This document shows, piece by piece, positions 2,403-17,962 of a stretch of DNA of 64,000 nucleotides. Under the pieces are notes generated by a model. That model searched no databases and was not told where the DNA came from. It saw nothing but the letters and a program-made list of their open reading frames with translations. How positions within the stretch are numbered: the first letter of the stretch is position 1; every line of letters begins with the position of its first letter. Origin of the DNA: a bacterium (GTDB lineage: Bacteria > Patescibacteriota > Minisyncoccia > Phycocordibacterales > UBA1006); assembly GCA_030433255.1 (NCBI GenBank), contig JAUIMI010000001.1, positions 311,362-375,361 on the forward strand, given 5' to 3'. Made by a program: the position numbers and the translations under genes.

Positions 2403-2437
2403 ATACCTTGAATTCTTTGAAACAAGGTATTTTTTAT
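2403..2437 (+). terminator. rho-independent terminator downstream of engB
   Basis: A 10-bp stem (AAATACCTTG ... CAAGGTATTT) is followed by a T-run. Confidence 0.6.
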
Positions 2438-2478
2438 TGATATACCTGTTATTATATAATATAACGTCGTAAAATATA

Positions 2479-2493
2479 TGTTGTGCGACGTTA
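2479..2493. repeat. left copy (attL-like) of a perfect 15-bp direct repeat TGTTGTGCGACGTTA
   Basis: The 15-mer is identical to the one at 19203..19217. It lies inside a short imperfect palindrome (TAACGTCG ... CGACGTTA) and sits 180 bp from an integrase pseudogene. Confidence 0.55.
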
Positions 2494-2675: not shown

Positions 2676-3170
2676 TTACGAAGCCTGAAGTAGAACATCC
2701 CTCAATTTTAAGGCTTCCAATAATGAAGAGTCCAAGGTTAATGTTGGTTTGTTTTGGTTCAAATTGGATACTTCAGACTGTTGCCCTCCTTTTCTAGACA
2801 TATACTTTCCTGCCAATTCCTGATGACGGTTCGCACATAAATGTGTATAAGTAAATGAAGATTCAGGTTTTACATGTCTCAGAATCACCGAGACGTCTCT
2901 CATATTACCTCCCTGTTCTAAAATGCTATTCGCCTTGCCATGCCTAAAGCTGTGCGGTGTATAATTCTTGTCGATATTGGCATCTTCACACAGTAATTTC
3001 ATCCAACGTTGTACACTTCGCTGCGTGAATGGTTTCTTCGTTTTTGGATTAATCAAAAGTTCATCATGGTCAGTATCGAACCCTAGCCGTATCCCTAAAT
3101 AAATATTGAGCAAGAGAAGAGTAAATACAGCGATAGCTTCGAATTTGAAATAATTAAAGCCTATAACGAA
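2676..3170 (-). pseudogene. tyrosine recombinase / phage-type integrase, N-terminally disrupted
   Basis: The C-terminal catalytic region contains HSFRHG (the HxxR box) and a tyrosine in FTYTHL. A box I-like LNIYLGIRLG is present. The frame begins with TTG and an in-frame stop lies about 20 codons upstream. No core-binding domain can be recovered upstream. Confidence 0.6.
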
Positions 3171-3545: not shown

Positions 3546-3679
3546 TGATCAGCGTAAGTATTACGTATTCGGACACTACCTTGAATTCTGCGAATACTAG
3601 TTTAAGTAATATAGGCTCTGTTTCAAAATGTTAACTTTCAATTTATATTAAAAAACACCATTTGGTGTTTTTTAAGTAA

Positions 3680-6600
3680 CTAATTCAATGATGTAACTCC
3701 ATCTAATGCCACTCCAGAAAGAGCATTTAAATGCCCTGCGGTTTCAGGTCCAATAATTCCATCAAGGATTAAGTTATTAGCTTGTTGGTATGAACGAATA
3801 CCTGCGTAGGTAAGCCCTCCGTAAATACCATCAAATGGTCCAATGGAATGGCCAAGTGAAGCAATACATTCTTGTGCTTGACGTATGTCATTTCCTGTCA
3901 TTCCTCGTTTGATTAATCGTCTGTAATTGATGAAACATTTGGCATCTTCTACAACAGGAGTTGATTCTACTTCTATTACTTCTTTCCCACAACTATTGTT
4001 AATCAATGATCTTGTAATTGGTCCAACATATCCGTCCTGAGTTGTACCTAGATATGCTTGCATACGTTTAATAGCTCCGTCAGTAATTGGTCCCAAGATC
4101 CCATCTACTTTCCCTGATGCAAACCCTAATCTATTCATATGTGCTTGAAGAATTTTAACTTCCGTTATGGTTTCATTTTCCCATGATGAGAAGCTTCCGT
4201 TGCGGTCTCCTACTTTCATGTTTTGATTTAGTATTTGAGATGATGGACATTGTTCCCCTTTTCCAAGCTCTTCAGAAACAGGAGTTCCAAAAATTTCTGC
4301 TAACTTTTCTTTTGATACACGCCTTGAACTTCCTTTTGAAGTTGAAGTCGTAGCATCATCATCCGTTAGCGTTACGATATGTGCTTGGTCAGCAACCGCA
4401 TCATACTCATCAGCACTTGCAGCAGCATTGATGCTAGCGGTGATACTTGCGGTGTCGGTTTGCACAAGGTCATCGTCAACACCTGTGACGGTAACCGTTT
4501 GAGGTGTATCCCAGTTTGCTGGTGTAAAGGTCAGTGAGCTTGGTGATACCGTTGCTTCGTTGGTGTCACTTGAACTCAGGTCGATGACAACATCTGAGGT
4601 TGGTTCAGCATCAAGCACAATGGTGTAGCTTGCTGTTCCTGCGTTTTCTGAAGCTGTTGATGTGTTTGATGATTGAGTGAAATCAGCCATATCATCATCA
4701 GTGATGATAATTGAAGCGGTTGCATCTGCTACCCCATCATAGGTATCATCAGAGGCAGCATCATTTACCGAAATCGTAAGTGTAGCTGAGTCATCACGGT
4801 CAAGATCATCGTTAACTGCTGTTACGGTGATGGTTTGGTTGACGTTCCAGTTACCTGTAGTAAAAGTCAGTGAACTTGGCGAGACGGTGGCTTCCCCAGT
4901 GTCACTTGAACTCAGGTCGATGACAACATCAGTAAGTGGCTGTGAACCCAACCGAACATTGAAACTCCCAGTTCCTGCATTTTCAAGAATGGTTAATCCA
5001 GTTGTGGTAATTCCACTTGGGTCGATGATAATAGAAGCGGCATCATCATCCGTTAGCGTTACGATATGTGCTTGGTCAGCAACCGCATCATACTCATCAG
5101 CACTTGCAGCAGCATTGATGCTAGCGGTGATACTTGCGGTGTCGGTTTGCACAAGGTCATCGTCAACACCTGTGACGGTAACCGTTTGAGGTGTATCCCA
5201 GTTTGCTGGTGTAAAGGTCAGTGAGCTTGGTGATACCGTTGCTTCGTTGGTGTCACTTGAACTCAGGTCGATGACAACATCTGAGGTTGGTTCAGCATCA
5301 AGCACAATGGTGTAGCTTGCTGTTCCTGCGTTTTCTGAAGCTGTTGATGTGTTTGATGATTGAGTGAAAGAAGTAACCACATTTACAATACGTGTTACTT
5401 CGATAGCATCATTTCCAGCCGCATCAGCTACATTATATGTGATAGTGTAACTACCAAGAGTGGATGTATCTACTGGATTTACAGTTACAATATTTACTGT
5501 GATATCTCCATCAAGATTATCTGTTGCAGCCGCTCCAGCATCTGAATATGGAGTATTTACAGGGACTGTTACAGGGTCACTCCCTGTAAGTGTTATAACA
5601 GGGGGTGTTGTATCTTGTAACCATAGTCTATTTTGAAAATCACCATTATCCCCATTGACTACGTAAACATCAATTTCCCCATCATTGTTTACGTCCCCAG
5701 TTGTAACCCCAAATGATTCCCCAGTATCTCCTGTAATGTTGTTTTGTGTAAAGTTTCCAGATCCATCATTTTCCCAAATAATATTCTGAAAACCAAAATA
5801 CATTGCAATAAGGATATCCAAATCACCATCACCATCAAAATCAACAATTTCTGAATCTTGAGCAGTACCTCCATAGTCATTAGCGATATTTTGAGAGGCA
5901 AATGTCCCATCATTATTATTTATCCAAAACCGATTTAGATTAACAGGTTGGTCATCATAGTATGAGGTTAGGTATAAATCAATATCATTATCACCATCTA
6001 TGTCACCGACAACTACTGAACGACCTGGGCAACCATTATTTTGATCCGTACATATATCACCAGTTATGTTACCACTTACAAAAGTTCCATCCCCATTTCC
6101 GAGCCATAATTTGTTCTGGTTATTATACGCTGCTCGTGAAGCGTAAATGTCTAGGTTTCCATCGTTATTAAAATCAGCCATTGCTACATCATCAGCAATA
6201 CCATCTCCTGAAATACTTCCATCAATGAAATTCCCAGTCCCATCATTTATCCAAAGAACATTGGTTCCGCCACTAAATGCTCCTACATAAATATCTAAAT
6301 CGCCATCATTATCAACATCGCCAATAACAACCGAACTAGACCGAGAAGTTGTTGAGTCAGCTGGAATATCGGCATTTGTAAATGTACCATCTCCATTTCC
6401 AAGCCATAGTTTATTTTTACTAAAACTATTGGTGACATAGATATCCAAATTCCCATCACCGTTAAGGTCTGCCATAGCTGCATCGGTAGTGTTTCCTTGG
6501 TCATCACCTAGAATATCAGAATTGGTAAAAGTTCCATCCCTATTTCCGATCCATAATTTATTTTGCTCTAATCGAGCACCTACATATATGTCTAAGTTTC

Positions 6601-6742
6601 CATCGTTGTTAACGTCACCCATTATGGCTGAACGTGAATTTCCTAAATCATTAGGAATATCTTGTGAAACGAATTCGGCATAAGCGCCTTGAGCACTAAA
6701 AGCAAGCGCAAGTAATAAAATAATCTTTGTATAATACTTCAT
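3680..6742 (-). CDS. large secreted FG-GAP/VCBS beta-propeller adhesin-like protein with Ig-like repeats and two C-terminal peptidoglycan-binding domains
   Basis: A signal peptide is present. There are seven or more D-x-N-x-D-G-x-L-D-I-Y-V calcium-binding FG-GAP repeats, a HYR/Ig-like segment, three beta-sandwich repeats of about 110 aa (two identical) and two PG_binding_1-like modules at the C-terminus. Confidence 0.8.
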   Translation of the reverse strand: MKYYTKIILLLALAFSAQGAYAEFVSQDIPNDLGNSRSAIMGDVNNDGNLDIYVGARLEQNKLWIGNRDGTFTNSDILGDDQGNTTDAAMADLNGDGNLDIYVTNSFSKNKLWLGNGDGTFTNADIPADSTTSRSSSVVIGDVDNDGDLDIYVGAFSGGTNVLWINDGTGNFIDGSISGDGIADDVAMADFNNDGNLDIYASRAAYNNQNKLWLGNGDGTFVSGNITGDICTDQNNGCPGRSVVVGDIDGDNDIDLYLTSYYDDQPVNLNRFWINNNDGTFASQNIANDYGGTAQDSEIVDFDGDGDLDILIAMYFGFQNIIWENDGSGNFTQNNITGDTGESFGVTTGDVNNDGEIDVYVVNGDNGDFQNRLWLQDTTPPVITLTGSDPVTVPVNTPYSDAGAAATDNLDGDITVNIVTVNPVDTSTLGSYTITYNVADAAGNDAIEVTRIVNVVTSFTQSSNTSTASENAGTASYTIVLDAEPTSDVVIDLSSSDTNEATVSPSSLTFTPANWDTPQTVTVTGVDDDLVQTDTASITASINAAASADEYDAVADQAHIVTLTDDDAASIIIDPSGITTTGLTILENAGTGSFNVRLGSQPLTDVVIDLSSSDTGEATVSPSSLTFTTGNWNVNQTITVTAVNDDLDRDDSATLTISVNDAASDDTYDGVADATASIIITDDDMADFTQSSNTSTASENAGTASYTIVLDAEPTSDVVIDLSSSDTNEATVSPSSLTFTPANWDTPQTVTVTGVDDDLVQTDTASITASINAAASADEYDAVADQAHIVTLTDDDATTSTSKGSSRRVSKEKLAEIFGTPVSEELGKGEQCPSSQILNQNMKVGDRNGSFSSWENETITEVKILQAHMNRLGFASGKVDGILGPITDGAIKRMQAYLGTTQDGYVGPITRSLINNSCGKEVIEVESTPVVEDAKCFINYRRLIKRGMTGNDIRQAQECIASLGHSIGPFDGIYGGLTYAGIRSYQQANNLILDGIIGPETAGHLNALSGVALDGVTSLN
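4354..4682. repeat. intragenic direct repeat, copy 1 (about 329 bp, identical to 5041..5369)
   Basis: Read by eye, the nucleotide sequence is identical to copy 2, offset by 687 bp (229 codons), inside the 3680..6742 CDS. Confidence 0.85.
5041..5369. repeat. intragenic direct repeat, copy 2 (about 329 bp, identical to 4354..4682)
   Basis: Same evidence as copy 1. The domain copy between the two (about 4700..5040) is diverged. Confidence 0.85.
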
Positions 6743-6857
6743 ATCAATTTAAATATTAACCTAAGTCATTATTATTTACAATATCCTTGAACGAAAATTT
6801 GACTTGCAAAAATTGCTTATTGAAGTATAGTTGTATTAAATTTTAAACAAGTAAATT

Positions 6858-7352
6858 ATGAAACAATTATTTCTTCTAGTATTGGTATTTTTCTCTATTA
6901 CAGTGCAAGCTCAAGTTGGGCTAGGTACCAACACCCCAGACCCTAATTCTATATTGGATTTAACAAGTAACAATAAGGGATTGCTTATCCCTCGAATGCT
7001 AACTAGTGATCGTTTAGCTATTACATCACCACCAAACGGGTTAATCGTATTTGATGTTGATACCAATGGCATATGCTATTTTTCCTCTACTTTGGATTGG
7101 GTTTGCATTGATGCAGAGTCTACTAATGGATGGGTGCAATCTGTTGATGGCACAACACCAGCAAGTGATGCAACTCAATCCATTGAGCGTTCTGGTGACC
7201 TAGAAATTTCAACCACAAGTTTTCAGATTAGTATCTCTGAGTCAGGTGGGATTACACTCAAAAACACCTCAAGTAATTCAAGTATAGAAATACAAAGCGA
7301 CGGTAAGATAAAGATGACCGGAGCAAGTGGAAGTTTTGTATACATTAATTAG
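6858..7352 (+). CDS. secreted hypothetical protein
   Basis: A signal peptide (MKQLFLLVLVFFSITVQAQ) is present. A conserved N-terminal block VGLGTNTPDPNSILDL..GLLIPRM..DRLAI..P.NGLIVFDVDTN resembles a motif I recall from Bacteroidetes surface proteins, but the family identity is uncertain. Confidence 0.5.
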   Translation: MKQLFLLVLVFFSITVQAQVGLGTNTPDPNSILDLTSNNKGLLIPRMLTSDRLAITSPPNGLIVFDVDTNGICYFSSTLDWVCIDAESTNGWVQSVDGTTPASDATQSIERSGDLEISTTSFQISISESGGITLKNTSSNSSIEIQSDGKIKMTGASGSFVYIN

Positions 7353-7450
7353 TTGAAAATTGAATTTAGAAAAGCCCTTACACTCGTATAGGCTTTTTTT
7401 TAAATTACTTAAAGGACATTTAATACAAGGATTACAATATCTAAAGGACA

Positions 7451-7490
7451 TTTAAAAACAGGCTATTTTTAAGTAGCCTGTTTGTTATTT
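7451..7490. terminator. bidirectional terminator between the convergent genes 6858..7352 and 7493..8863
   Basis: The hairpin ACAGGCTA-tttttaag-TAGCCTGT is flanked by an A-run and a T-rich run. A second, weaker hairpin lies at about 7371..7402. Confidence 0.5.
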
Positions 7491-7492
7491 AG

Positions 7493-8863
7493 TTAACGTA
7501 TAATTAATTTTTTAGATATTATCTTGTTGCTTGTAAGTATACTCACATGATACATTCCAGATGATAGATTAGGTAATTGTAAGCTTGTATTATCCGCCAA
7601 TAAACTACTATCATAATAAGCCATGGTTTTACCCAATGGATTATAGATAGTCACCTCTTGTATTGTAATAGCTTCGGGTAAGATAAAATGTATCTCTGTT
7701 GTTGCAGGATTTGGATATAAACGAATACTGTCAGTGGAGTCCTCAATATCTGAAACTCCCAAAGTAGCTTCATTTATGACATACATCTCAGTGATTAATT
7801 CATTTTCATATTGACCAACACCAATGTTGCCAGAAGTTAAGAGAACATTTGAAACTATCCCTTGATAAGGCATCTTTACAATAACGGATGAACCATATGC
7901 TCTATCAGCCGGAATAAAATTAGGATCTAGCGTCAAATTTGAGCCAGTATCGATGTAAATTCCTGCACTGGGATTCGGTTGTGATTGAAAACCAGCTACA
8001 TAATAGTCAAAACTTCCATCACTATTAAAATCATGTTCAAGAATATTAGCCTGTATATGATTAGGAATTACACTCGAACTTAACTCCGTAACACCATCTG
8101 AATCCACAAAATAAATATCAGATGTGTTGTTGTTAGTTTTAAGAATATACCTTCCAAATTCATTAAACACCAAAATGGTATCTGAACCCAATAAGCCTCT
8201 TGTACCTCTCAAGACATTATACGTGCCATTGTTGTTGCTAACCATAACATAACAATTATTATTCACATCATTGTTTGGTGTTGAGTTAAGAGAACTGGTA
8301 TCATCTACTATTTTTGTAAAGAATCCATTGGAATTTTCATAAATAATAGAACGTAAACGAAAACTTGCATCACGACCACTTGTTCGTAAATCAAGATCGC
8401 CATCATTATCAACATCGAAAAAATCAGCTATAACATCGTAAAGTCCAATGAGGTTTTGGGATACATTGTACCCTCCATTCCCGTCATCCATACGAATTTC
8501 TGCAAAAGGATTTGAATTGGGCAAATTAAGATTTGGCGTACCGATAATAAGAATATCTGGACCATACAGCCCATCAAGATCAGCCTGAAGTATTTTTCCA
8601 TACCCCACATCTGGCAATGTTCCCGTCTGAGCAAACATGTCATTTGTGTCATCAAAGTCGTAAATGCGAGTCCCAAGAATAGAATTATCCTCTATTCCAT
8701 ATCCGATTAATCGATTATGTAAACCATCTCCGTTAGTGTCGATAGGTAGAAATTCTCCTTTGACAGGAACGAGATTGTGCTGAATAGTTCCATAATTTAG
8801 TTGAGCACACACATTGAAAATAGGTGCAATTGCCATCATCAAAAACAAAATAATTTTTTTCAT
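7493..8863 (-). CDS. secreted FG-GAP-like repeat protein with a T9SS (Por) C-terminal sorting domain
   Basis: A signal peptide is present. Calcium-binding D-x-D-x-D-G repeats occur (FDVDNDGDLDL). The C-terminal 75 aa (LYPNPATTEIHF ... GMYHVSILTSNKIISKKLIIR) matches the type IX secretion CTD pattern. Confidence 0.7.
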   Translation of the reverse strand: MKKIILFLMMAIAPIFNVCAQLNYGTIQHNLVPVKGEFLPIDTNGDGLHNRLIGYGIEDNSILGTRIYDFDDTNDMFAQTGTLPDVGYGKILQADLDGLYGPDILIIGTPNLNLPNSNPFAEIRMDDGNGGYNVSQNLIGLYDVIADFFDVDNDGDLDLRTSGRDASFRLRSIIYENSNGFFTKIVDDTSSLNSTPNNDVNNNCYVMVSNNNGTYNVLRGTRGLLGSDTILVFNEFGRYILKTNNNTSDIYFVDSDGVTELSSSVIPNHIQANILEHDFNSDGSFDYYVAGFQSQPNPSAGIYIDTGSNLTLDPNFIPADRAYGSSVIVKMPYQGIVSNVLLTSGNIGVGQYENELITEMYVINEATLGVSDIEDSTDSIRLYPNPATTEIHFILPEAITIQEVTIYNPLGKTMAYYDSSLLADNTSLQLPNLSSGMYHVSILTSNKIISKKLIIR

Positions 8864-9037: not shown

Positions 9038-10978
9038 ATGAAAAAGCGAGTTGGCGTGTGGATACGAGTTTCCACAAAATTACAGCAGAATTCAGATAGC
9101 CCTGAACATCATTTGCAAAAAGCAAAAATGTACGCAGAGCTAAAAGATTGGGATATTGTAGAAGAGTACCACTTAGAAGCTGTTAGCGGCAAAAGCGTGA
9201 TGGAACACCATGAAGCCCAGCGTATGATGCGAGATATTCAAAGTGGTCATATTGAAGGTTTGATCTTCTCGAAGATTGCCCGCTTTGCTCGTAACGTAAA
9301 AGAACTTTTGGAATTCTCAAAACACTTTCAAAAGTATAAGGGAGATATGATTTCCTTGAGTGAATCTATAGATACCAGTACACCTTCTGGTCGCTTTTTC
9401 TTCACCATGATTTCTGCTATGGGTCAGTGGGAACGTGAAAATATTGTTGAACGTATTAAATCATCTGTAGAAGTCAGAGCCAAAATGGGAAAAATAATGG
9501 GTGGTATTCCATTTGGGTATAAACGAGTAGGTAAAGATGATATGGCACTTGATGAACACGAAGCTCCAATTCGTAAAATGATGTTTGACTTGTTTTTGGA
9601 GCATGAACGGCATGCAACCGTAGCCAACATTCTTAACGAAAAAGGATATCGCACCAAACGAAAAAGTAAATTCACCGGTACTACGGTTAAACGACTATTA
9701 CAAGACCCAACTGCAAAAGGTATTAGACGTTCTCATTGCACTAAGATAGATGAAAATGGAAAAACCGTAATGAGGGATAAGTCGGAATGGTACATCCACG
9801 AAGCACCACGAATCGTATCAGACGAAGTATGGGACACCGTAAATGATATTATCCGTAAACAGGAAAAAGAAAAGGTACAACCATTAAATAAAAAGGTGCA
9901 TTTGTTTACAAGCTATTTATTTTGTGAATGCGGTGGCGGTATGTATGTGCCATCGTCAAACCCAAAATACACTTGTAAGAAGTGTAAACGCAAAATCCAT
10001 GTCGAAGATATTGAAGCGATCTTTAAAGAACAGCTCACCGAGTTCATCATTTCAGAAGAAGAAGTAAAACGTTACTTTAATGGCACACACACCATCATCA
10101 GAGAAAAGCAACAAGAGATTGAAAATGTGAAATCAGAAATACTAAAACTTGAAGATAAGATTGAAAAGCTATTTGAACTTCACGAAAAAGGGCAAATTGA
10201 GACTGATAGATTTAAAGATTTCTACGATAAACCAAACAACCAAGTGCAACAATTAAAACTCAGAATCCCACGAATTGAAGGCGAAATCTATGCCTTGAAA
10301 GACCAATTTAAATCAAGTGGATATATTATTGAAGAAGCTCGTTCGTTATATGAAAACTGGCATAAACTCACCAAAAGGCAAAAACGTAACATCATAGAAA
10401 TCATTACCGAAAAGATAGTGGTATCAGAGCAGGAAGTGAACATCACACTTAACTATATTCTTCCAAAGACACCATCTTTGAAAACGACTGCAAATGGTAC
10501 TCATGGACTATACTCAATGAGTACCATTTGCAGTTTTAAACTGAAACCAAAGTTACGCAAAATACCTAAAGCAAAACCCTTTACCCACTCACTTGGAGAG
10601 TACATCCGACACGAAAGGCTAAAAAAGCACATTTCACAAGAAGCATTAGCAAAACAGTTTGGTGTTAATGGAGTTGCTTTATCTATGTGGGAACTAAAAC
10701 GTAAGCCAGTACATCCAAAACGTTTTCAATCGGTGATTGATTTTCTTGATTACGTTCCTAAAAAGTCATCGAAGTTTGATAAGCTAGGAACACGCACTCA
10801 ATTATGGCGATTACAAAATGAGGTGAGCCTCCAAGAGTTTTCAGAATTGGTACATGTTCCCATAGAAGAAATTACACGAATAGAAACAGCTAGATATTGT
10901 AAAATTGACAGTAAGGTATCTGAAATCATCAACGCATTCATCAAACACTCTATTTCTTCCCACGAAGTGCTTTCATAA
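9038..10978 (+). CDS. large serine recombinase (resolvase/invertase N-terminal domain, recombinase domain and zinc ribbon) with a C-terminal HTH extension
   Basis: The N-terminal VGVWIRVSTKLQ carries the serine nucleophile context. A Cys4 zinc ribbon (CECGGG ... CKKCKRK) and coiled-coil segments follow. One or two XRE-like HTH motifs sit at the C-terminus (ISQEALAKQFGVNGVALSMWE). Confidence 0.85.
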   Translation: MKKRVGVWIRVSTKLQQNSDSPEHHLQKAKMYAELKDWDIVEEYHLEAVSGKSVMEHHEAQRMMRDIQSGHIEGLIFSKIARFARNVKELLEFSKHFQKYKGDMISLSESIDTSTPSGRFFFTMISAMGQWERENIVERIKSSVEVRAKMGKIMGGIPFGYKRVGKDDMALDEHEAPIRKMMFDLFLEHERHATVANILNEKGYRTKRKSKFTGTTVKRLLQDPTAKGIRRSHCTKIDENGKTVMRDKSEWYIHEAPRIVSDEVWDTVNDIIRKQEKEKVQPLNKKVHLFTSYLFCECGGGMYVPSSNPKYTCKKCKRKIHVEDIEAIFKEQLTEFIISEEEVKRYFNGTHTIIREKQQEIENVKSEILKLEDKIEKLFELHEKGQIETDRFKDFYDKPNNQVQQLKLRIPRIEGEIYALKDQFKSSGYIIEEARSLYENWHKLTKRQKRNIIEIITEKIVVSEQEVNITLNYILPKTPSLKTTANGTHGLYSMSTICSFKLKPKLRKIPKAKPFTHSLGEYIRHERLKKHISQEALAKQFGVNGVALSMWELKRKPVHPKRFQSVIDFLDYVPKKSSKFDKLGTRTQLWRLQNEVSLQEFSELVHVPIEEITRIETARYCKIDSKVSEIINAFIKHSISSHEVLS

Positions 10979-13900
10979 TAATATTAGTTATCGAAGCCTG
11001 CTTATTGGTGTCATTGTCTGTTTTGTAATCCACGTTTACACGGTAGCCACGTACACGCTTTACTTTGGTTTTTGGTTGAATTAAGGCATCAAGATACAGC
11101 AGTAATTCTTCAGATTTGAAGAAGTGGATTTTTAAGTGTTGTTTTTTAGAAATATTCTTTAAGGCTTGTTCCTTGATATTCTTAAGATGCTTTTCGTCCT
11201 CTGAAATCATATATACCAAAGAGTAGTTATCATCCAAGCACTTTTGAATATTTTGTACTTCATAATCTACTCTATTAGTTACTGAAATTTCAATGGCAAT
11301 ACGAATATCATCTTTTAACAGCGATACATCAACTTTGCCACCATTTAATGTTGAATCTTCAAGTGTTGCCTTAAACCCTCGCTGGAGAGCCATAGAACGA
11401 ATGTAATTTTGAATTGAACGATGCTGACGGACAATCTCCTGTTCTTCGGCTTGTTGTAAGTATTTTTCTTTACGAGCTTCTAAATCATCAGTCTTTTCTA
11501 AATTTTCAGTTTTTGGAGATGGTTTTGTTTCAGTAATGGGCTTTTCAACTTCACTTTTCTTATCTTCAACAATTACGGGTTCAACAGATTTTTCAATTTT
11601 GGGTTCTGTTGTTTTAGTTTTGAGTTTAGTCTTTTGGGGTGTTTGCTTAGGAAGCAAGGAAGCTAACAACTCATCAAGTTCTGCTTTAGATTTGCTGTAG
11701 CTTTTTCTTGTATGAGCAACAATACTATCTCTATTTACTTCGGCATTAGTTTCAGCTATAGACAATGGAAAGGTTGAAATATTAAAATCATCACTTGAAG
11801 AACCTACGCGCATAATGGCTTGTCCGATACCGAGACTCTGTAAATCATCTTGCTCAAAATATGAAAAACCAGACTCCAATCGTTTCGCATCGCTATCGCC
11901 TAGACGAAAACAAATCCGTGTTTTTGGATTTGATAAAACAGAGTTCAACAATTTTGCATCTTCAATTTGAGCCAATTCTTGATGAGCAATGGTAATACCT
12001 AAACCATATTTTCTAGCACCACTTAATATACGTTCAATACTTGGTGTGATGAAATTTTGGAACTCATCTAGGTATAACATAAAAGGTTTACGGCTATCCT
12101 TACCTTTAGATTGCCTTGCCAATGCCGATTGATTAAATTTTGCCAAGAACAATGAGCCTAATAAATAGGAATTCTGTTCTCCAATAAGGCCTTGCGATAA
12201 TTTCAGTAAAACAATTTTGTTGGTATTAAGGCAATTTGCTACATCAACACCTTTGTTTTGAGCTAACATATAGCGCACCAATTTTGGACGTAAAAATGTA
12301 TCTATACGAGTAAGTAGTGGTGCAATACCTTTTCGTACCAAAGGATATTCATTATTCCAATAGTAATGTAACGAAGGGTCGTTGACCGTTTTTAAGTATT
12401 GAACTCTATAAGGTTCTTCAAGTAGAAAACGCTTTAATTCAATAAGCGTTCCACCTTGAGTGCTCTCTAACATGGTATTTACAGCGTTTTGCAATACCGC
12501 AGTCATATTATCTCCCCAAGCAGTGGCATGACGTTTAAATGCCGAAACTAAATCTGATGAGAGTACAATTTTTTCAGCATCGGTATGCGCTTCTAATAGA
12601 TTGAATCCAATAGGGAAGTCAGCATCGGAAGGGTCTATTAAAACTACATCATTAATCCTGTTTTCTGGAATACGCTCTAAAATATCATCAATGATGTCGC
12701 CATGTGGATCGAACATAGCACAACCCATTCCATTTTCAATATCGGCAAGCATCATATTTGCCAGTAGAGTACTTTTACCAACGCCTGTGGCTCCTATTAC
12801 GTGTGTATGGGACAAACGTGTTTCATAGCTTAATTGAACAGGAATATCTTCTTGATTATGGGTATTGACTCCAATTAGGATGCCTTGATTGTCCTTTTGG
12901 TGTATACGTTTGGTTTTACCAACTTGCCATTGTAGTTTTTTAGAAACCACCGTTTTATTGGGATAGTGCAAAAAGGTATTCAGTTCCTTGGAATTCAATA
13001 CAAAGCCCAATCGGTTACTGAGGCGATGATGTAGATTGTATTTATGGAAATCATAATCATACCCTTCATTGGATAAAGGGATGAGTTTGTTATGCTGAGA
13101 GGTTGAAACTGCCGAAATACTTCGTGCTAACTCTTGTGCCAGATACTGACTCCTGTAATTGTCCTTGCCTTGAGTAGCTATACGCATCACCACTGAAAAT
13201 AGTGGATGTGCTATTTTTTCTTTGGCACACTGTGGCATTTCAGGAGCATCCGAAAAAAAAGAACCGCCAGCACCATCATTTACCGAATACATTGTATCCT
13301 TTGCTAAAGGAGAACTAATACCTTTAAACAGAATTTGAAAAACAGCAACATCATCATCCTGCAAAGCTTCCATAGTTGCGATGACTGAAGTTAATGGGTC
13401 TATGTTAAAAGAATCAGACGTAACTATGCTTCGCATATATTCACTATTAAGCCCAAAGTCTGCAATAGCGATATCATTTTTGTTTGAAAATCCAAAATCA
13501 TCAACTTCAATAGTTTTAATTATAACCATTGGAAAGTATGCCGATAATTGCGATTTCAATCTGCCTCTATCCTGTTTACTACATACCATTTGAATTTGGA
13601 TAGTATCTGAATTACCAATAATTTCAAAGGACAGTAAATGTTCTGTAAAGGATAGTAGATTGAGAAGTTCGATATTCCTGCTTGGATTGATTTCAGTCCC
13701 ATACGGAAAGGAAATTGAGAGACCAACAAGTTGAGGCTTTTCTGAAACTTCAAGAAAACGAGGTTTAACCTCTATTAAATCTTCTTCTGGTTCTTCTTCT
13801 TTAGGAGGAGCAAGTAATTTGGTTACTTGTTTGAATAATGAAGGTGCTCTACCATCATCTTGTATTGAAGGTCGGTTTTGGCTTACATGCTGAAAGGGAA

Positions 13901-14009
13901 CATAGGGAACCTCAATATCAATAGGAGTATCGAAATTGTAATACCCACGAAATCGATACTCCCAATTATAGAAATTAAGGGTTGCTTGTTCACTTCTTGT
14001 TAAACCCAT
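10950..14009 (-). CDS. FtsK/HerA/TrwB-superfamily P-loop ATPase (DUF87 or type IV coupling-protein-like) with an unknown 400-aa N-terminal domain, a K/E/P-rich linker and a C-terminal possible nuclease-like domain
   Basis: Walker A GATGVGKST is present, then FDPHGD, Walker B LYLDEFQNF and an AHQ motif. No TM helices are evident. The C-terminal roughly 120 aa show a D...E-I-S pattern weakly reminiscent of PD-(D/E)xK folds. Confidence 0.65.
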   Translation of the reverse strand: MGLTRSEQATLNFYNWEYRFRGYYNFDTPIDIEVPYVPFQHVSQNRPSIQDDGRAPSLFKQVTKLLAPPKEEEPEEDLIEVKPRFLEVSEKPQLVGLSISFPYGTEINPSRNIELLNLLSFTEHLLSFEIIGNSDTIQIQMVCSKQDRGRLKSQLSAYFPMVIIKTIEVDDFGFSNKNDIAIADFGLNSEYMRSIVTSDSFNIDPLTSVIATMEALQDDDVAVFQILFKGISSPLAKDTMYSVNDGAGGSFFSDAPEMPQCAKEKIAHPLFSVVMRIATQGKDNYRSQYLAQELARSISAVSTSQHNKLIPLSNEGYDYDFHKYNLHHRLSNRLGFVLNSKELNTFLHYPNKTVVSKKLQWQVGKTKRIHQKDNQGILIGVNTHNQEDIPVQLSYETRLSHTHVIGATGVGKSTLLANMMLADIENGMGCAMFDPHGDIIDDILERIPENRINDVVLIDPSDADFPIGFNLLEAHTDAEKIVLSSDLVSAFKRHATAWGDNMTAVLQNAVNTMLESTQGGTLIELKRFLLEEPYRVQYLKTVNDPSLHYYWNNEYPLVRKGIAPLLTRIDTFLRPKLVRYMLAQNKGVDVANCLNTNKIVLLKLSQGLIGEQNSYLLGSLFLAKFNQSALARQSKGKDSRKPFMLYLDEFQNFITPSIERILSGARKYGLGITIAHQELAQIEDAKLLNSVLSNPKTRICFRLGDSDAKRLESGFSYFEQDDLQSLGIGQAIMRVGSSSDDFNISTFPLSIAETNAEVNRDSIVAHTRKSYSKSKAELDELLASLLPKQTPQKTKLKTKTTEPKIEKSVEPVIVEDKKSEVEKPITETKPSPKTENLEKTDDLEARKEKYLQQAEEQEIVRQHRSIQNYIRSMALQRGFKATLEDSTLNGGKVDVSLLKDDIRIAIEISVTNRVDYEVQNIQKCLDDNYSLVYMISEDEKHLKNIKEQALKNISKKQHLKIHFFKSEELLLYLDALIQPKTKVKRVRGYRVNVDYKTDNDTNKQASITNIIMKALRGKK

Positions 14010-14014: not shown

Positions 14015-14599
14015 CTATCTGATAAATACATCATTTAACATAGGCTTACGCTCTGCCTCACTGATAGAGCGGATTCCTTTATCGTTGGTAATGTCATCAA
14101 TGACTTTTAACACCGAAGATTGAGCGTAGCTCATAAACATACTGGCAGTATCTATCCTGTAATAGGTTACTGGATACAATTTTCTTGCAAGCCAACCACC
14201 TATAAATGGAATTTTAGCAACCAATATCTTGCCAATGGAATCTTTATACAATAACCACCAAGACACGAAAAAGCCATGACCAAACTTGGCTCCACAAATA
14301 TCATATTGGTAATCTTTCCATATAGCTCGTAAATAGATGCGAGAATGAGACATCGCTCCTCCTTCTTTAATGAATTTTTCTTTGATATTGATTTTTGTAA
14401 TGCCGTGAGATTCCAGTTCGGTTTTTAATAAGGCATAAAACTCTTTAGGTGAGTATTCAAAGTTATCAATAAGGGTACTCCACCGTGAGTGATAGTTTTT
14501 TCTGGTTTTACTGAAAATAAATCTTAAAACTAGAAAAGCAACAATTCCAGCTAGGACATACATCCCATATTTTGTTAGATAAAAAGTGAATTCATTCAT
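14015..14599 (-). CDS. hypothetical membrane-anchored protein
   Basis: It has a single N-terminal TM helix. It lies 5 bp upstream of the ATPase gene and 26 bp downstream of the AlaX-like gene on the same strand. Confidence 0.45.
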   Translation of the reverse strand: MNEFTFYLTKYGMYVLAGIVAFLVLRFIFSKTRKNYHSRWSTLIDNFEYSPKEFYALLKTELESHGITKINIKEKFIKEGGAMSHSRIYLRAIWKDYQYDICGAKFGHGFFVSWWLLYKDSIGKILVAKIPFIGGWLARKLYPVTYYRIDTASMFMSYAQSSVLKVIDDITNDKGIRSISEAERKPMLNDVFIR

Positions 14600-14625: not shown

Positions 14626-15534
14626 TTATATTAATTGTGTCTTTATTGATAAGGTTTTTTCCTCTTCATTATAGAAGCAGTCTACAGTAACTTTAGGTAA
14701 TTGGGACAAAGAGCTAACATGAGTTCCTCCACAAGGGATAGTAACAAATCTATCATTTATTTTTACTTTAAAATTTCGTTTAGCCCCTAATTGAATATTA
14801 TCTCCGAACATACTTACTTTAGAAGATTTATTGATATCTATAAGTTTGTTTAAACTACTCGACAACTCAATAGAAAACTTTTTAAAATCTAAGCTTTTGA
14901 ATTTAACTAAGTCAAACCCTTTCTTTGATAAACTTTTACCAATACGATATACATCAGTAGCATAATAAGTGTAGATTTTTGATTTCTGTATTGCTAAGGC
15001 ATCAAAATTTGGATTATTAAGATCATCTTTAAAATCCACCTCTTTTTTCCAAAATGAAGCTAGTTCTTCATTAAGAATTATTGACATCAAATGAACGGTA
15101 GTGTGTGTTTTAGAGAGATTTTCTCTAAATTTTTCGTCTACATATAACTCGCAATCTAAATCAATTAATGAGTTTTCATTTAATGAGTTTAAATCGTCAA
15201 TAATAAAATGCCCTATCATGGCAATATATATACCTTCTTGAAGCCCTTTATAAAAAGCACTTTTACTTTTGGGAAATACATTCTTTCTAGTATTTATGTC
15301 TATAATTATAATACGAGAGTCTTCAACCTTATATGTTTTTCCTTGAATGACTATTTTTCCTTTATCTCCTGGTTGATCTCCACCTAGATAATCTTCAGGG
15401 TGAAATGGACTCATGTCTGTACAAACATATAGACCCTCAGGAAAAGAAAAGACACCTTTTATTTTAGCTTTAGAATAGGTTGAATTTTCATAATATAATG
15501 CTTGGCTAGTTGTTGTTCTATTTGAGATTTTCAT
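14626..15534 (-). CDS. AlaX-M-type alanyl-tRNA synthetase-like trans-editing domain protein
   Basis: The N-domain signature is ALYYENS ... FSFPEGLYVCTDMSPFHPEDYLGGDQPGDKG, of the LYY ... FYP.GGGQP.D.G type. The editing-site zinc motifs HTTVHLM (HxxxH) and CGGTHV (CxxxH) are separated by about 115 aa, as in AlaRS/AlaX editing domains. Confidence 0.7.
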   Translation of the reverse strand: MKISNRTTTSQALYYENSTYSKAKIKGVFSFPEGLYVCTDMSPFHPEDYLGGDQPGDKGKIVIQGKTYKVEDSRIIIIDINTRKNVFPKSKSAFYKGLQEGIYIAMIGHFIIDDLNSLNENSLIDLDCELYVDEKFRENLSKTHTTVHLMSIILNEELASFWKKEVDFKDDLNNPNFDALAIQKSKIYTYYATDVYRIGKSLSKKGFDLVKFKSLDFKKFSIELSSSLNKLIDINKSSKVSMFGDNIQLGAKRNFKVKINDRFVTIPCGGTHVSSLSQLPKVTVDCFYNEEEKTLSIKTQLI

Positions 15535-16553: not shown

Positions 16554-16630
16554 TACGGATTTTCCCTTAATTTTTAATGCTGATTATCTGAAAGACAATA
16601 ATTTCAAGTAGATTTACTTCATTATTCGAA

Positions 16631-17320: not shown

Positions 17321-17622
17321 TTAGCAGTGTTTTCGGCTATGGCTAATGCTTGACCACTATGAACTATATCATTATCCTTTACGAGAAGATTGCTAATTTC
17401 ACCACTCATTCTTGCATATTCCTTTTGAGGTGGAATTGTAGTAGTTATTATTACCTGTGACTGAATAATATCAGGATACTTAATATACCATGTTGCTAAA
17501 AACAATAAAAATATAACTACAAAAATTACCGTTATCCCCCATTTTAAAAAAACATTTGGTTGCTTTTCTAAAATTTCTCTAATTTGCTCACTGTGATTAT
17601 CGATTTCGTCAATTTTCATCAT
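17275..17622 (-). pseudogene. N-terminal fragment of an HlyD-family bacteriocin or peptide secretion accessory protein
   Basis: A TM helix is followed by IIQSQVIITTT-PPQKEYARMSGEISNLLVKDNDIVHSGQALA, typical of the first 110 aa of LcnD/ComB-type HlyD proteins. The ORF ends after 115 aa and overlaps the convergent TPR gene. Confidence 0.5.
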
Positions 17623-17876: not shown

Positions 17877-17962
17877 AATAAAAAGTTTTATATAGTTTAC
17901 TTGCCTACTCTTTTAGCTTTTCGGCTCCCGCTATTATTATTTTCTAAATAAACGAAAAATAT

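What the first reader, a model, noticed from the sequence alone, without database searches (positions are those of the whole stretch)
3680..8863. Island cargo of two calcium-binding FG-GAP beta-propeller surface proteins, one with peptidoglycan-binding anchors and one with a Bacteroidetes-type T9SS sorting domain
The 456-aa protein ends in a sequence that fits the type IX secretion C-terminal domain (YPNPA ... G.Y ... K.I.). That export signal is only meaningful in Bacteroidetes-like hosts with a T9SS. The backbone gene set here (minimal PheS, PheT and Obg; an atp operon including atpDC) does not look Bacteroidetes-like. This suggests the cargo was acquired horizontally from a Bacteroidetes donor and may be non-functional for secretion here. 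The 1020-aa neighbour instead uses two PG_binding_1 modules for wall attachment.
Basis: partly seen in the sequence, partly recalled or inferred. Interest (0 to 1): 0.5.

Follow-up and report, generated by a model that had tools for sequence, protein, structure and literature searches.

The report
Flavobacterial mobile element inside a CPR genome
Two secreted beta-propeller surface proteins, one carrying a Bacteroidota-only type IX secretion tag, sit on a 16.7-kb mobile element of flavobacterial ancestry that inserted site-specifically into the chromosome of a marine ultra-small CPR bacterium (Paceibacteria), a clean case of recent DNA transfer between two phyla.

Summary
ORF 7493-8863(-) ends in a full-length type A T9SS sorting domain (TIGR04183, 48.5 bits against a cut-off of 23). 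ORF 3680-6742(-) has seven FG-GAP repeats, an Ig-like domain and two PG_binding_1 domains. The host backbone is Patescibacteria, class Paceibacteria: its AtpD is 81-94% identical only to CPR proteins.

The genes lie in a 16.7-kb island (2479-19216) flanked by an exact 15-bp direct repeat. At least nine related Paceibacteria contigs show the uninterrupted site (EngB then L9). Two independent assemblies reproduce both junctions at 100% identity, so this is not a chimera.

The island backbone (serine recombinase, VirD4-like ATPase, conserved small proteins, Xer-like integrase) is 58-97% identical to elements in Flavobacteriia/Bacteroidia genomes, and those elements also carry CTD-tagged cargo. 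The window retains an intact serine-recombinase attP. The element was instead opened at a site next to the now-truncated Xer-like integrase, so it entered through its second integration module.

Whether the CTD does anything in this host is untested. No T9SS gene lies in the window, and no CTD occurs in 680 kb of related CPR DNA. The mechanism is known in kind, but the cross-phylum case is unusually well resolved.

The parts
2464..2492 (+). Complete 29-nt conserved intergenic motif ACGTCGTAAAATATATGTTGTGCGACGTT. It is the chromosomal attachment site (attB-derived, reconstituted at attL) and a candidate dif site.
   Evidence: Near-invariant (0-2 mismatches) in 14 related contigs whose EngB is only 56-78% identical, and 5 mismatches in L029. 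Single copy in the window.
2479..2493 (+). attL core: left copy of the 15-bp direct repeat TGTTGTGCGACGTTA
   Evidence: Only two matches in 64 kb even allowing 2 mismatches; 0.06 expected by chance.
2676..3113 (-). Truncated Xer-like tyrosine integrase; only the C-terminal 145 aa remain
   Evidence: Phage_integrase hit to profile positions 85-169. Best NCBIfam hits are XerA/XerC/XerD, below the equivalog cut-offs. 57% identical to residues 220-311 of the intact 314-aa integrase in L015; nothing in the window matches its N-terminal 219 aa.
3680..6742 (-). 1020-aa secreted protein: signal peptide, 7-repeat FG-GAP propeller, Ig-like/HYR domain, three ~115-aa repeat modules, two PG_binding_1 domains
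   Evidence: Closest same-architecture relatives are ~60% identical: Mesoflavibacter sabulilitoris P0147, Paceibacteria-like L097, and plasmid-like L099-101.
4353..5339 (-). Internal repeat array in the 1020-aa gene. Copies 4353-4652 and 5040-5339 are 100% identical; the middle copy is 64% identical.
   Evidence: Short-read contigs L001/L002 break inside this array.
6858..7352 (+). 164-aa small secreted protein (precomputed Pfam PF26696 PTL_trimer), divergent from the 1020-aa gene
   Evidence: It co-occurs with the CTD protein in L004 (88% identity) and with the FG-GAP/PG_binding protein in L097/L098 (48% identity).
7493..8863 (-). 456-aa secreted protein: signal peptide, divergent FG-GAP-type propeller, T9SS type A C-terminal domain
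7496..7720 (-). T9SS type A sorting domain (residues 382-456)
   Evidence: TIGR04183 model positions 1-72 of 72, 48.5 bits against a cut-off of 23. dN/dS is 0.18 against the 70%-identical homologue in L004.
9038..10978 (+). Large serine recombinase read through its own attP into an HTH_3 module (646 aa)
   Evidence: Resolvase, Recombinase and HTH_3 domains. 85-92% identical to copies in Tenacibaculum, a Bacteroidia MAG and a Paceibacterota MAG.
10488..10533 (+). Intact serine-recombinase attP: perfect 17-bp inverted repeats (CTGCAAATGGTACTCAT / ATGAGTACCATTTGCAG) around a 12-bp centre
   Evidence: In the Bacteroidia MAG the left half ends one end of the element (L007) and the right half starts the other end ~46 kb away (L015). 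The crossover lies within TATA.
10950..14009 (-). VirD4/TraG-like coupling ATPase (1019 aa)
   Evidence: TrwB_AAD_bind and TraG-D_C hits. 73% identical to L015 and L008; 50-56% to Kordia and Psychroserpens.
14015..14599 (-). Conserved element protein of unknown function
   Evidence: 48-63% identical in all related elements, always next to the coupling ATPase
14626..17934 (.). Accessory block absent from the Bacteroidia copy, partly decayed. It holds a weak AlaX-like ORF, a VioC/GntD-like hydroxylase, a TPR protein, an HlyD N-terminal fragment, an 84-aa ORF that ends in the last 30 aa of a peptide-export ABC transporter, and a DUF805b RNA hit (17902-17934, minus strand).
   Evidence: Three of these ORFs (14626-15534, 15531-16553, 17275-17622) have host-like GC3 of 0.20-0.22; the TPR gene has 0.34.
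18045..18350 (+). HTH_3 (Cro/C1-type) regulator
18573..19197 (-). Two small conserved element ORFs, 94-97% identical to the Bacteroidia MAG element
   Evidence: 88-90% nucleotide identity
19202..19216 (+). attR core: right copy of the 15-bp direct repeat, preceded by an element-derived half-similar arm (TTGTCGGACAA GTAGTG)

Best explanation
The two proteins, together with a small third one, are cargo of a 16.7-kb integrative and probably mobilisable element (window 2479-19216). The element's home is marine Flavobacteriia/Bacteroidia, and it has inserted into the chromosome of a marine Paceibacteria (CPR/Patescibacteria).

The element has two integration modules. One is a large serine recombinase whose attP lies inside the 3' end of its own gene. 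The other is a Xer-like tyrosine integrase with an adjacent attP. In a Bacteroidia genome the element is integrated through the serine-recombinase site, which splits that gene. Here that attP is intact. The element was opened instead next to the tyrosine integrase and recombined with a highly conserved 29-nt intergenic site between engB and rplI, duplicating 15 bp. The integrase has since been truncated.

In its ancestral host the 456-aa protein would be exported by Sec. Its C-terminal domain would be recognised by the type IX secretion system, and the protein would be displayed on or released from the outer membrane as a calcium-binding propeller adhesin. In the present host, which by lineage has no outer membrane and no known T9SS, the signal peptide should still drive Sec export, but the CTD cannot act as an outer-membrane translocation signal. 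It is then a retained beta-sandwich appendage. The 1020-aa protein would be Sec-exported and held on the wall by its two PG_binding_1 domains.

Shown: domain content, host identity, island borders, empty sites, junction reproducibility, relatedness to Bacteroidota elements, and the attP/att architecture. Inferred: direction of transfer, absence of a T9SS in the rest of the genome, and the fate and function of the proteins.
For: Domains.

Host: AtpD 81-94% identical to CPR proteins only. Housekeeping backbone with no T9SS family among about 50 ORFs.

Island borders: an exact 15-bp direct repeat, 2 occurrences against 0.06 expected.

Empty sites: L017, L018, L019, L020, L023, L025, L031, L049 and L095 have M23-orf-EngB> <L9-S41-DUF4015 collinear with a 126-566 bp spacer, and every spacer contains the motif.

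Not a chimera: independent Logan assemblies of SRR24442553 and ERR3428547 cross attL and attR at 100% identity.

Bacteroidota kinship: serine recombinase 85-89% (Tenacibaculum ovolyticum isolate, Bacteroidia MAG), VirD4-like 73%, small ORFs 94-97%, integrase 57-58%. Relatives at 42-56% occur in five Kordia/Psychroserpens genomes. The Bacteroidia flanks outside the element are typical of a free-living Bacteroidota and include another CTD protein.

Circular permutation: the reconstructed attP (window right arm + core + left arm) aligns contiguously with L015, score 150 against 33+-6 for shuffles and 43 for the reconstructed attB. The serine-recombinase attP is intact, with perfect 17-bp inverted repeats whose halves are ~46 kb apart in the Bacteroidia MAG.

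CTD cargo is typical of the family in Bacteroidota: a 1507-aa CARDB+CTD protein in L007, plus CTD ORFs in L010, L011, L012 and L014. By contrast there were 0 hits in 632 kb of related CPR loci and 47 kb of window backbone.

GC3 of cargo and core genes is 0.25-0.35 against 0.20+-0.04 for the backbone.

Literature: T9SS is specific to the FCB superphylum (PMC12398890). The CTD is required for T9SS cargo (PMC11285876). Patescibacteria are proposed to lack an outer membrane (PMC12102498). Bacteroidota have been inferred as HGT donors to Patescibacteria (PMC12455944).
Against: Only 64 kb (plus 4 kb from L102) of the host genome was readable, so absence of a T9SS is inferred from lineage rather than shown.

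The cargo genes themselves have no close Bacteroidota copy. The best relative of the 456-aa protein (70%, L004) is on a contig of unknown host. The 1020-aa protein is equally distant (~60%) from a Mesoflavibacter isolate, a Paceibacteria-like chromosome and a plasmid-like contig.

The Xer-like integrase/att module matches a site that is conserved in Paceibacteria and is used there by another integrase-bearing island (L029). At least that module could therefore be CPR-adapted rather than Bacteroidota-derived.

All three surface-protein genes are intact while the integrase, an ABC exporter and an HlyD gene have decayed. The CTD shows purifying selection against its nearest homologue. Both points fit retained function better than dead cargo.

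The 632 kb of CPR DNA scanned for CTDs samples the same syntenic region repeatedly, so it is not a random sample.
Confidence: 0.75

Rival explanations
1. Adaptive acquisition. The propeller proteins are functional adhesins in the Paceibacteria and are retained because they bind the surface of a Flavobacteriia host cell, or the same particles and polysaccharides that host binds. The CTD is kept as a structural or binding module rather than as a secretion signal.
For: The three surface genes have intact ORFs while other island genes have decayed. dN/dS is 0.05 for the propeller and 0.18 for the CTD against the L004 homologue. The PTL plus FG-GAP/PG_binding pair is present in a second Paceibacteria-like chromosome with no mobile-element genes nearby. 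PG_binding_1 anchoring suits a wall-exposed monoderm-type envelope. CPR bacteria are generally epibionts (PMC12102498).
Against: There is no expression or localisation data. The divergence used for dN/dS may have accumulated in Bacteroidota hosts. Only one CPR genome is shown to carry the CTD protein. No CTD was found in other CPR loci.
Confidence: 0.3
2. Reverse or bidirectional traffic. The element, or at least its Xer-like integrase/att module, is native to Paceibacteria and moved into Flavobacteriia, picking up CTD cargo there. The window copy would be a returnee or a mosaic.
For: The att site used is a sequence conserved across Paceibacteria. A related Paceibacteria contig (L029) carries a different, phage-like island with a 32%-identical Xer-like integrase in the same position and orientation. 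The Bacteroidia copy keeps a similar att-like sequence next to its intact integrase. Three accessory ORFs have CPR-like GC3.
Against: The serine recombinase, VirD4-like ATPase and o14015 core is found at 42-56% identity in five further Flavobacteriaceae genomes, and the only other CPR hit is a 19-kb contig without clear CPR backbone genes. CTD cargo makes sense only in T9SS hosts. Core-gene GC3 exceeds the CPR backbone.
Confidence: 0.12
3. Assembly or binning artefact. A flavobacterial element was wrongly joined to a CPR contig.
For: The genome is a MAG. Short-read contigs break inside the island at 2742, 5420, 9060 and 19076, which shows repeats in those communities. The second 'Paceibacterota' contig, L008, shows no clear CPR backbone genes.
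Against: Both junctions are reproduced at 100% identity in independent assemblies of two different runs. The insertion is flanked by an exact 15-bp duplication of a conserved host site, and the element is opened exactly at its att-like site. A mis-join would not produce this.
Confidence: 0.03
4. The host does have a T9SS-like export route or an outer membrane, and the CTD works as a genuine sorting signal.
For: The backbone shows two traits otherwise typical of Bacteroidota. Gln follows the predicted cleavage site in three of three clear backbone signal peptides, and Shine-Dalgarno motifs are almost absent.
Against: AtpD and synteny place the genome firmly in Patescibacteria. No T9SS family was found in the window. 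No CTD occurs in related CPR DNA. Literature reports no outer membrane in this group (PMC12102498) and restricts T9SS to the FCB superphylum (PMC12398890).
Confidence: 0.02

Closest known systems
Type A CTD cargo proteins of the Bacteroidota type IX secretion system (TIGR04183/PF18962; e.g. P. gingivalis RgpB, Flavobacterium johnsoniae adhesins)
   Same: N-terminal Sec signal peptide, a passenger domain, and a ~75-aa C-terminal beta-sandwich sorting domain that matches the full curated model above its cut-off. FG-GAP plus CTD architecture is shared with P0005-P0007.
   Different: It is encoded in a Patescibacteria chromosome, where no T9SS or outer membrane is expected. The passenger propeller is too divergent to hit Pfam FG-GAP directly. 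The family is tiny: only 7 relatives were found.
FG-GAP/VCBS (integrin-alpha-like) beta-propeller surface proteins with PG_binding_1 anchors, e.g. Mesoflavibacter sabulilitoris P0147
   Same: The same order of signal peptide, 7-repeat FG-GAP, Bact_surface_Ig-like and PG_binding_1. About 60% identity over the propeller and Ig domain and 56% over the anchor. In Mesoflavibacter the gene also lies next to a serine recombinase.
   Different: The window protein has three extra ~115-aa modules, two of them identical at the DNA level, and a second PG_binding_1 domain.
Integrative elements driven by large serine recombinases (e.g. SCCmec Ccr, Tn5397 TndX, fdxN element XisF)
   Same: Resolvase plus Recombinase domains, with best NCBIfam hits CcrB/CcrC/XisF below cut-off. 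attP has perfect inverted repeats around a central crossover. The recombinase gene sits at the end of the element.
   Different: attP lies inside the recombinase reading frame. The excised/attP form therefore encodes a 646-aa recombinase-HTH fusion, while the integrated form encodes 492 aa plus a separate 149-aa HTH protein. In this window that module was not the one used for integration.
Elements that integrate at dif or dif-like sites using Xer-type recombinases (IMEX such as CTX-phi; dif biology as in PMC3025954)
   Same: Xer-like integrase. The target is a single, highly conserved ~28-nt site with partly palindromic arms, located where gene orientation converges and GC skew changes sign. 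A complete site is reconstituted on one side and a half-similar site on the other.
   Different: The element brings its own integrase. The site's similarity to B. subtilis or E. coli dif (19/28) is no better than chance in this AT-rich window. The skew change also tracks coding strand. Identification as dif is therefore a hypothesis.
Reported horizontal transfer between Bacteroidota and Patescibacteria (MetaCHIP-based survey, PMC12455944)
   Same: Bacteroidota as donor phylum and Paceibacteria as recipient. Genomic islands in Patescibacteria MAGs.
   Different: That survey inferred mostly single genes at an average 24% divergence and found recent inter-phylum events rare. Here a whole element is resolved, with att sites, empty sites, an isolate-genome relative and up to 97% protein identity.

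Membership tests
T9SS type A C-terminal sorting domain (TIGR04183 / PF18962) | Score above the curated cut-off over the full model | tested here: met
   TIGR04183 48.5 bits (cut-off 23), model positions 1-72 of 72. PF18962 42.1 bits (cut-off 27).
T9SS type A C-terminal sorting domain (TIGR04183 / PF18962) | Domain at the extreme C-terminus of a protein with an N-terminal Sec signal peptide | tested here: met
   The domain covers residues 382-456 of 456. The N-terminus MKKIILFLMMAIAPIFNVCA|Q was read by eye; no signal-peptide predictor was available.
T9SS cargo (functional membership) | T9SS machinery (PorK/L/M/N, Sov/SprA, PorU/V) encoded in the same genome | not testable with these tools
   None was found among about 50 window ORFs scanned with Pfam, but the rest of the 388-kb contig and the genome could not be read. 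The lineage argues against it (PMC12398890, PMC12102498).
FG-GAP / VCBS beta-propeller | Multiple FG-GAP repeats detected by Pfam (1020-aa protein) | tested here: met
   PF13517 E 1e-45 in 7 stretches; PF01839 E 1e-18
FG-GAP / VCBS beta-propeller | FG-GAP repeats in the 456-aa protein | tested here: inconclusive
   No Pfam hit at E<=0.01. hhalign to the neighbour's propeller gives 98.2% probability, E 3e-14. Homologues carry FG-GAP. The AF2 model has pLDDT 50 and only propeller matches, at TM 0.2-0.3.
PG_binding_1 wall-anchored proteins | PG_binding_1 domain(s) above the gathering score | tested here: met
   PF01471 91.9 bits, two stretches
Patescibacteria (CPR) host | Conserved marker protein closest to CPR sequences; flanks collinear with CPR contigs | tested here: met
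   Named AtpD hits at 81-94% identity are all CPR. Synteny with metagenome contigs holds on both sides of the island.
Site-specifically integrated mobile element | Flanking direct repeats, an empty site in relatives, and recombinase gene(s) | tested here: met
   15-bp direct repeat. Nine or more empty sites. A serine recombinase and a truncated tyrosine integrase.
Large-serine-recombinase element | attP with inverted repeats around a central crossover; att halves at the two ends of integrated copies | tested here: met
   Window 10488-10533. The halves lie in L007 and L015, about 46 kb apart on one Bacteroidia contig.
Conjugative element (ICE) | Relaxase plus a mating-pair-formation T4SS | tested here: not met
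   Only a VirD4/TraG-like coupling ATPase was found. No relaxase or VirB4 family was detected in island ORFs. The element is at most mobilisable.
IMEX / dif-targeting element | The target is the chromosomal dif site (sequence similarity to known dif) | tested here: not met
   19/28 identity to B. subtilis dif, but shuffled windows reach 19-21
IMEX / dif-targeting element | The target is single-copy, conserved, and at the replication terminus | tested here: inconclusive
   Conserved and single-copy. Skew flips from + to - at the site in the window and in L019, L023, L027 and L029, but skew also follows coding strand. The whole-contig skew could not be read.

The most novel reading that the evidence does not exclude
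The element is a two-key shuttle that moves between marine Flavobacteriia and the Paceibacteria that live on them. It uses the serine recombinase to integrate in the flavobacterial chromosome and the Xer-like integrase to integrate at a conserved (dif-like) site in the epibiont. Its presence would then mark a physical host-epibiont pairing. The transferred propeller adhesins, including the CTD-tagged one, would be kept by the epibiont to attach to the flavobacterial surface.
Probability: 0.15. Interest if true: 0.8.

Novelty: new variant of a known kind. Interest (0 to 1): 0.6.

Why it matters
Hosts of almost all Paceibacteria are unknown, and inter-phylum transfers into CPR genomes have mostly been inferred statistically, gene by gene. 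Here a complete, recently moved element is resolved to the base pair. It has attL/attR, an intact second attP, empty sites in relatives, and near-identical core genes in cultured marine Flavobacteriaceae.

This gives a concrete and testable lead that marine Paceibacteria exchange DNA with Flavobacteriia and may live on them. It also offers a natural experiment on what becomes of a phylum-specific secretion tag once it lands in a cell without that secretion system. Finally, it shows how an element with two integration modules can cross a phylum boundary by using whichever attachment site the new genome offers.

Tried and rejected
(1) Bacteroidetes Q-rule as a marker of cargo origin. The 456-aa and 164-aa proteins have Gln at +1 (VCA|Q, VQA|Q), but so do three of three clear backbone signal peptides (M23 TYA|Q, SLT VDA|Q, ORF 42152 AFS|Q). 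The trait does not discriminate.

(2) Shine-Dalgarno usage as a foreignness marker. Island 1 of 13 genes, backbone 3 of 48. It does not discriminate.

(3) Similarity of the att motif to known dif sites. 19/28 is within the range of shuffles, so this was dropped as evidence.

(4) RNA reading of the att hairpin. No Rfam hit on empty-site contigs. Arm substitutions in L029 and L030 are not compensatory. A DNA site is more likely.

(5) AlphaFold model of the 456-aa protein. Mean pLDDT is 49.9. Foldseek hits are all propellers but at TM 0.2-0.3, so this is used only as weak support.

(6) A genome-contig scan with the 456-aa protein found nothing. The cargo has no close copy in GTDB representative genomes.

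(7) PTL164 function. No NCBIfam or local Pfam hit. PDB matches were only low-complexity beta-trefoil designs. There was one 37.5% hit to a cyanophage hypothetical protein. The function remains unknown.

(8) P0003 (L005) joins the N-terminal half of a 456-aa homologue to DnaK on a 1.7x-coverage contig. It was treated as a probable assembly chimera and not used.

(9) L008, the second 'Paceibacterota' contig with the 646-aa recombinase, has no clear CPR backbone gene in the 14 kb read. It was not counted as independent evidence of CPR residence.

(10) dN/dS on the CTD. dS is saturated and the host history of the divergence is unknown, so it supports constraint in general but not function in CPR.

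Full report
**1. What is at the coordinates**

The two ORFs are real.

ORF 3680-6742(-) encodes 1020 aa. Its parts, in order, are:
- a signal peptide;
- seven FG-GAP repeats (PF13517, E 1e-45), each with a DxDxDG-type loop;
- a Bact_surface_Ig-like/HYR domain;
- three ~115-aa modules, two of which are identical at the DNA level (4353-4652 and 5040-5339);
- two PG_binding_1 domains.

ORF 7493-8863(-) encodes 456 aa. Its only direct family hit is the T9SS sorting domain. PF18962 scores 42 bits. TIGR04183 scores 48.5 bits against a cut-off of 23, covering the whole model at residues 382-456. The isolated tail scores 54 bits.

The N-terminal 360 residues of the 456-aa protein do not reach Pfam FG-GAP. 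Four results still indicate a propeller:
- Its small family aligns to the neighbour's propeller with hhalign probability 98.2%, E 3e-14.
- Its distant full-length relatives are annotated FG-GAP plus Por_Secre_tail.
- DxDNDGDxDL loops are invariant in the family alignment.
- A low-confidence AlphaFold model (pLDDT 50) is all-beta and matches only propellers, weakly.

Between the two genes lies a 164-aa secreted ORF, 6858-7352(+), with a precomputed PTL_trimer hit.

**2. Who the host is**

AtpD from the window's atp operon is 81-94% identical to proteins named Candidatus Pacebacteria, Patescibacteria group, Minisyncoccia, Paceibacteria or Nomurabacteria, and to nothing else among the best 120 hits. 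Sources include TARA and marine metagenomes.

The rest of the window is housekeeping: short PheS and PheT, GatB, Obg, LepA, MurJ, release factor, RmuC, ATP synthase, M23 and S41 peptidases. No T9SS family appears among about 50 ORFs scanned.

The host is a marine Paceibacteria (CPR). Literature reports this group as lacking an outer membrane (PMC12102498) and restricts T9SS to the FCB superphylum (PMC12398890). The remainder of the genome could not be read, so absence of a T9SS is inferred, not shown.

**3. The genes sit in a precisely bounded island**

The island contains the following genes:

| Coordinates | Feature |
|---|---|
| 2676-3113(-) | truncated tyrosine integrase |
| 9038-10978(+) | large serine recombinase |
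| 10950-14009(-) | VirD4/TraG-like coupling ATPase |

An exact 15-bp direct repeat, TGTTGTGCGACGTTA, lies at 2479-2493 and 19202-19216. These are the only two matches in 64 kb even allowing two mismatches, against 0.06 expected.

A metagenome scan with the flanking EngB returned 80 related loci. In at least nine of them (L017, L018, L019, L020, L023, L025, L031, L049, L095) the window's left flank (M23, small ORF, EngB) and right flank (L9, S41 peptidase, DUF4015, methylase) are directly adjacent. The spacer between them is 126-566 bp.

Every such spacer contains a nearly invariant 29-nt motif, ACGTCGTAAAATATATGTTGTGCGACGTT, although the flanking proteins are only 50-78% identical. The 3' half of this motif is the 15-bp repeat. 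The full motif is present at the left junction (2464-2492), and only the core is present at the right junction.

The island (2479-19216, 16.7 kb) is therefore an insertion into a conserved chromosomal site.

Independent Logan assemblies confirm both junctions. One from SRR24442553 matches window 1-2742. One from ERR3428547 matches window 21519-19076. Both cross a junction at 100% identity. This excludes an assembly chimera.

**4. Where the island comes from**

A scan of one genome per GTDB species with the serine recombinase found nine loci:
- Tenacibaculum ovolyticum DSM 18103, an isolate (85%; the gene is frameshifted there);
- a Bacteroidia MAG (89% over residues 1-516, with residues 489-638 found ~46 kb upstream on the same contig);
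- three Kordia and two Psychroserpens genomes (42-43%);
- one 19-kb 'Paceibacterota' contig (92%).

The Bacteroidia locus L015 also carries these island genes, in the same order:

| Gene | Identity to window |
|---|---|
| coupling ATPase | 73% |
| conserved ORF o14015 | 60% |
| two small ORFs | 94-97% protein, 88-90% DNA |
| intact 314-aa Xer-like integrase | 57% to the window fragment |

The Kordia and Psychroserpens elements share the ATPase (50-56%) and o14015 (48-63%).

Outside the element, the Bacteroidia contig encodes glutathione synthetase, a dicarboxylate symporter, MacB-type transporters and another CTD protein. It is a genuine Bacteroidota genome.

The cargo slot of that element holds a 1507-aa CARDB protein with a TIGR04183 tail. 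An HMM built from 14 CTDs gave these counts:
- CTD ORFs inside the Kordia and Psychroserpens elements;
- none in 632 kb of related CPR loci;
- none in 47 kb of window backbone.

The CPR sample is biased towards one syntenic region.

GC3 of island core and cargo genes (0.25-0.35) exceeds the backbone (0.20 +- 0.04).

The element family is therefore at home in marine Flavobacteriia/Bacteroidia, CTD-tagged cargo is normal for it there, and the window copy is a recent arrival.

**5. How it integrated**

In the window the recombinase ORF runs across a perfect attP. This is two 17-bp inverted repeats around a 12-bp centre, at 10488-10533, and the ORF continues into an HTH module to give 646 aa.

In the Bacteroidia MAG the left half of this attP ends the 492-aa recombinase at one end of the element. 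The right half starts a separate 149-aa HTH ORF at the other end. Homology to the window switches within TATA. So the Bacteroidia copy is integrated through the serine recombinase, and the window copy is not.

The window order is instead a circular permutation of the Bacteroidia order. In L015 the small ORFs are followed directly by the integrase. In the window these two features are the two ends of the island.

Joining the window's right arm, the core and its left arm reconstructs a sequence that aligns contiguously with L015:16055-16390. The score is 150, against 33 +- 6 for shuffles and 43 for the reconstructed empty site.

The element was therefore opened at the att site next to its Xer-like tyrosine integrase and recombined with the host motif. 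The integrase gene now retains only its last 145 codons.

A related Paceibacteria contig (L029) has a different, phage-like island with a 32%-identical Xer-like integrase at the same place and in the same orientation. The site is an integration hotspot.

**6. Is the site dif?**

Points in favour:
- The motif is single-copy and conserved.
- It has partly palindromic arms without compensatory changes, so it is more likely a DNA site than an RNA.
- It lies where gene orientation converges and GC skew turns from + to - in the window and in four relatives.
- The integrase is Xer-like.
- dif sites sit near skew shift points (PMC3025954).

Points against:
- The 19/28 identity to B. subtilis dif is no better than shuffles.
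- Skew here also follows coding strand.

I rate 'candidate dif' as a hypothesis.

**7. The cargo itself**

The 456-aa protein has only seven detectable relatives. The closest (70%) is on a 5.5-kb contig of unknown host, with the same small PTL neighbour (88%).

The 1020-aa protein is ~60% identical to three same-architecture proteins:
- one in Mesoflavibacter sabulilitoris, next to another serine recombinase;
- one in a Paceibacteria-like chromosome (L097, AtpD 83%), where it pairs with a PTL homologue between ftsX and a SpoU methylase with no mobile-element genes nearby;
- one on a plasmid-like contig.

These surface genes thus circulate in both phyla.

Within the island the integrase, an ABC exporter and an HlyD gene are reduced to fragments, while the three surface genes are intact. 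dN/dS against L004 is 0.05 for the propeller and 0.18 for the CTD, with dS saturated. This is compatible with retained function but does not prove it in this host.

**8. Mechanism proposed**

In the ancestral host the sequence would be Sec export, CTD recognition by the T9SS, then surface display or release of a calcium-binding propeller adhesin.

In the present host, Sec export still works, but the CTD has no outer membrane to cross and no PorU/PorV to process it. It is a passenger beta-sandwich. The 1020-aa protein is retained on the wall through PG_binding_1. Both may serve adhesion. These steps are inferred from family knowledge (PMC11285876, PMC12398890), not shown here.

**9. Novelty**

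Bacteroidota-to-Patescibacteria transfer has been inferred before, mostly for single genes at ~24% divergence, with recent inter-phylum events described as rare (PMC12455944).

What is new here is the resolution and the architecture:
- a whole element with two integration modules, each seen in use in a different phylum;
- base-pair att sites and empty sites;
- an isolate-genome relative;
- a phylum-specific secretion tag stranded in a cell that should lack the machinery.

A literature search turned up no paper linking Paceibacteria to Flavobacteriaceae hosts. I rate it a new variant of a known kind, interest 0.6.

Noticed in passing
window 2464-2492; L016-L031, L049, L095 (positions): A 29-nt intergenic motif (ACGTCGTAAAATATATGTTGTGCGACGTT) between engB and rplI is almost invariant across Paceibacteria contigs whose proteins are only 50-78% identical. 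It lies where gene orientation converges and GC skew changes sign. It may be the lineage's dif site, but its similarity to known dif sequences is not above chance.
   Followed up: partly
window 9038-10978, attP at 10488-10533; L007:10001-11479; L015:10016-10465: The serine recombinase's attP lies inside its own reading frame. The attP (excised or unused) form encodes a 646-aa recombinase-HTH fusion. Integration splits it into a 492-aa recombinase and a separate 149-aa HTH protein at the opposite end of the element. This could act as a built-in switch that reports integration state.
   Followed up: partly
window 44-1384(+), 43413-44774(-), 42152-42655(-): All three backbone proteins with a clear cleavable signal peptide have Gln right after the predicted cleavage site (TYA|Q, VDA|Q, AFS|Q). 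This pattern has been described as specific to Bacteroidetes (PMC5837995), and here it appears in a CPR backbone. The sample is very small.
   Followed up: no
window backbone genes, e.g. starts at 44, 33105, 44774, 55227: Shine-Dalgarno motifs are almost absent (3 of 48 backbone genes). Several genes have a TATAAT box 6-10 nt upstream of the ATG, which suggests frequent leaderless or very short-leader mRNAs in this lineage.
   Followed up: no
window 19303-19398(-): A 31-aa ORF (MKDTYIDPFTSEEVAGKQKEQEMNVCISCEG) downstream of rplI is recognisably conserved in the spacers of L017, L019, L027 and L049. It is called as a gene in L103. No family hit.
   Followed up: partly
window 14626-17934: A decayed accessory block inside the island, absent from the Bacteroidia copy. 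It contains a VioC/GntD-like Fe/2OG hydroxylase, a TPR protein, and an 84-aa ORF whose N-terminus looks like a double-glycine leader (by eye only) and whose last 30 aa match the C-terminus of peptide-export ABC transporters. It also has an HlyD N-terminal fragment and a DUF805b RNA hit (17902-17934, 45.4 bits against 35.6). Three of the ORFs have host-like GC3.
   Followed up: partly
L029:6285-13766: A related Paceibacteria contig carries a different, phage-like island (holin-like and lysin-like small ORFs, a zeta-toxin-like P-loop protein; domain labels judged by eye only). It has a full-length Xer-like integrase at the same engB-proximal site and in the same orientation, so the site is an integration hotspot.
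   Followed up: partly
L097:7608-10705 (NCBI GCA_013558355.1): A second Paceibacteria-like chromosome (AtpD 83%) has the PTL_trimer gene and an FG-GAP/Ig/PG_binding_1 gene as a divergent pair between ftsX and a SpoU methylase, with no mobile-element genes nearby.
   Followed up: partly
window 4353-4652 and 5040-5339: Two 300-nt segments inside the 1020-aa gene are 100% identical, with a 64%-identical copy between them. This indicates a very recent internal duplication or gene conversion. Short-read contigs end inside the array.
   Followed up: yes
L005:2890-4899 (P0003): A 669-aa ORF joins the first 191 residues of a 456-aa-protein homologue (74%) to the C-terminal two-thirds of DnaK, on a 1.7x-coverage contig that also carries a relaxase. 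It is probably an assembly chimera, but it places a relative of the cargo next to mobilisation genes.
   Followed up: no
window 23690-23772(+): ARAGORN calls a tRNA-Leu(GAG) here, but the Rfam tRNA model did not report it at gathering threshold, whereas tRNA-Ile at 40303-40376 is found by both.
   Followed up: no
L001, L002, L102, L103 ends (window 2742, 5420, 9060, 19076): Independent short-read assemblies all break inside the island: at the integrase fragment, the recombinase start, the small conserved ORFs and the internal repeat. This suggests that other copies or variants of the element coexist in the same samples.
   Followed up: no
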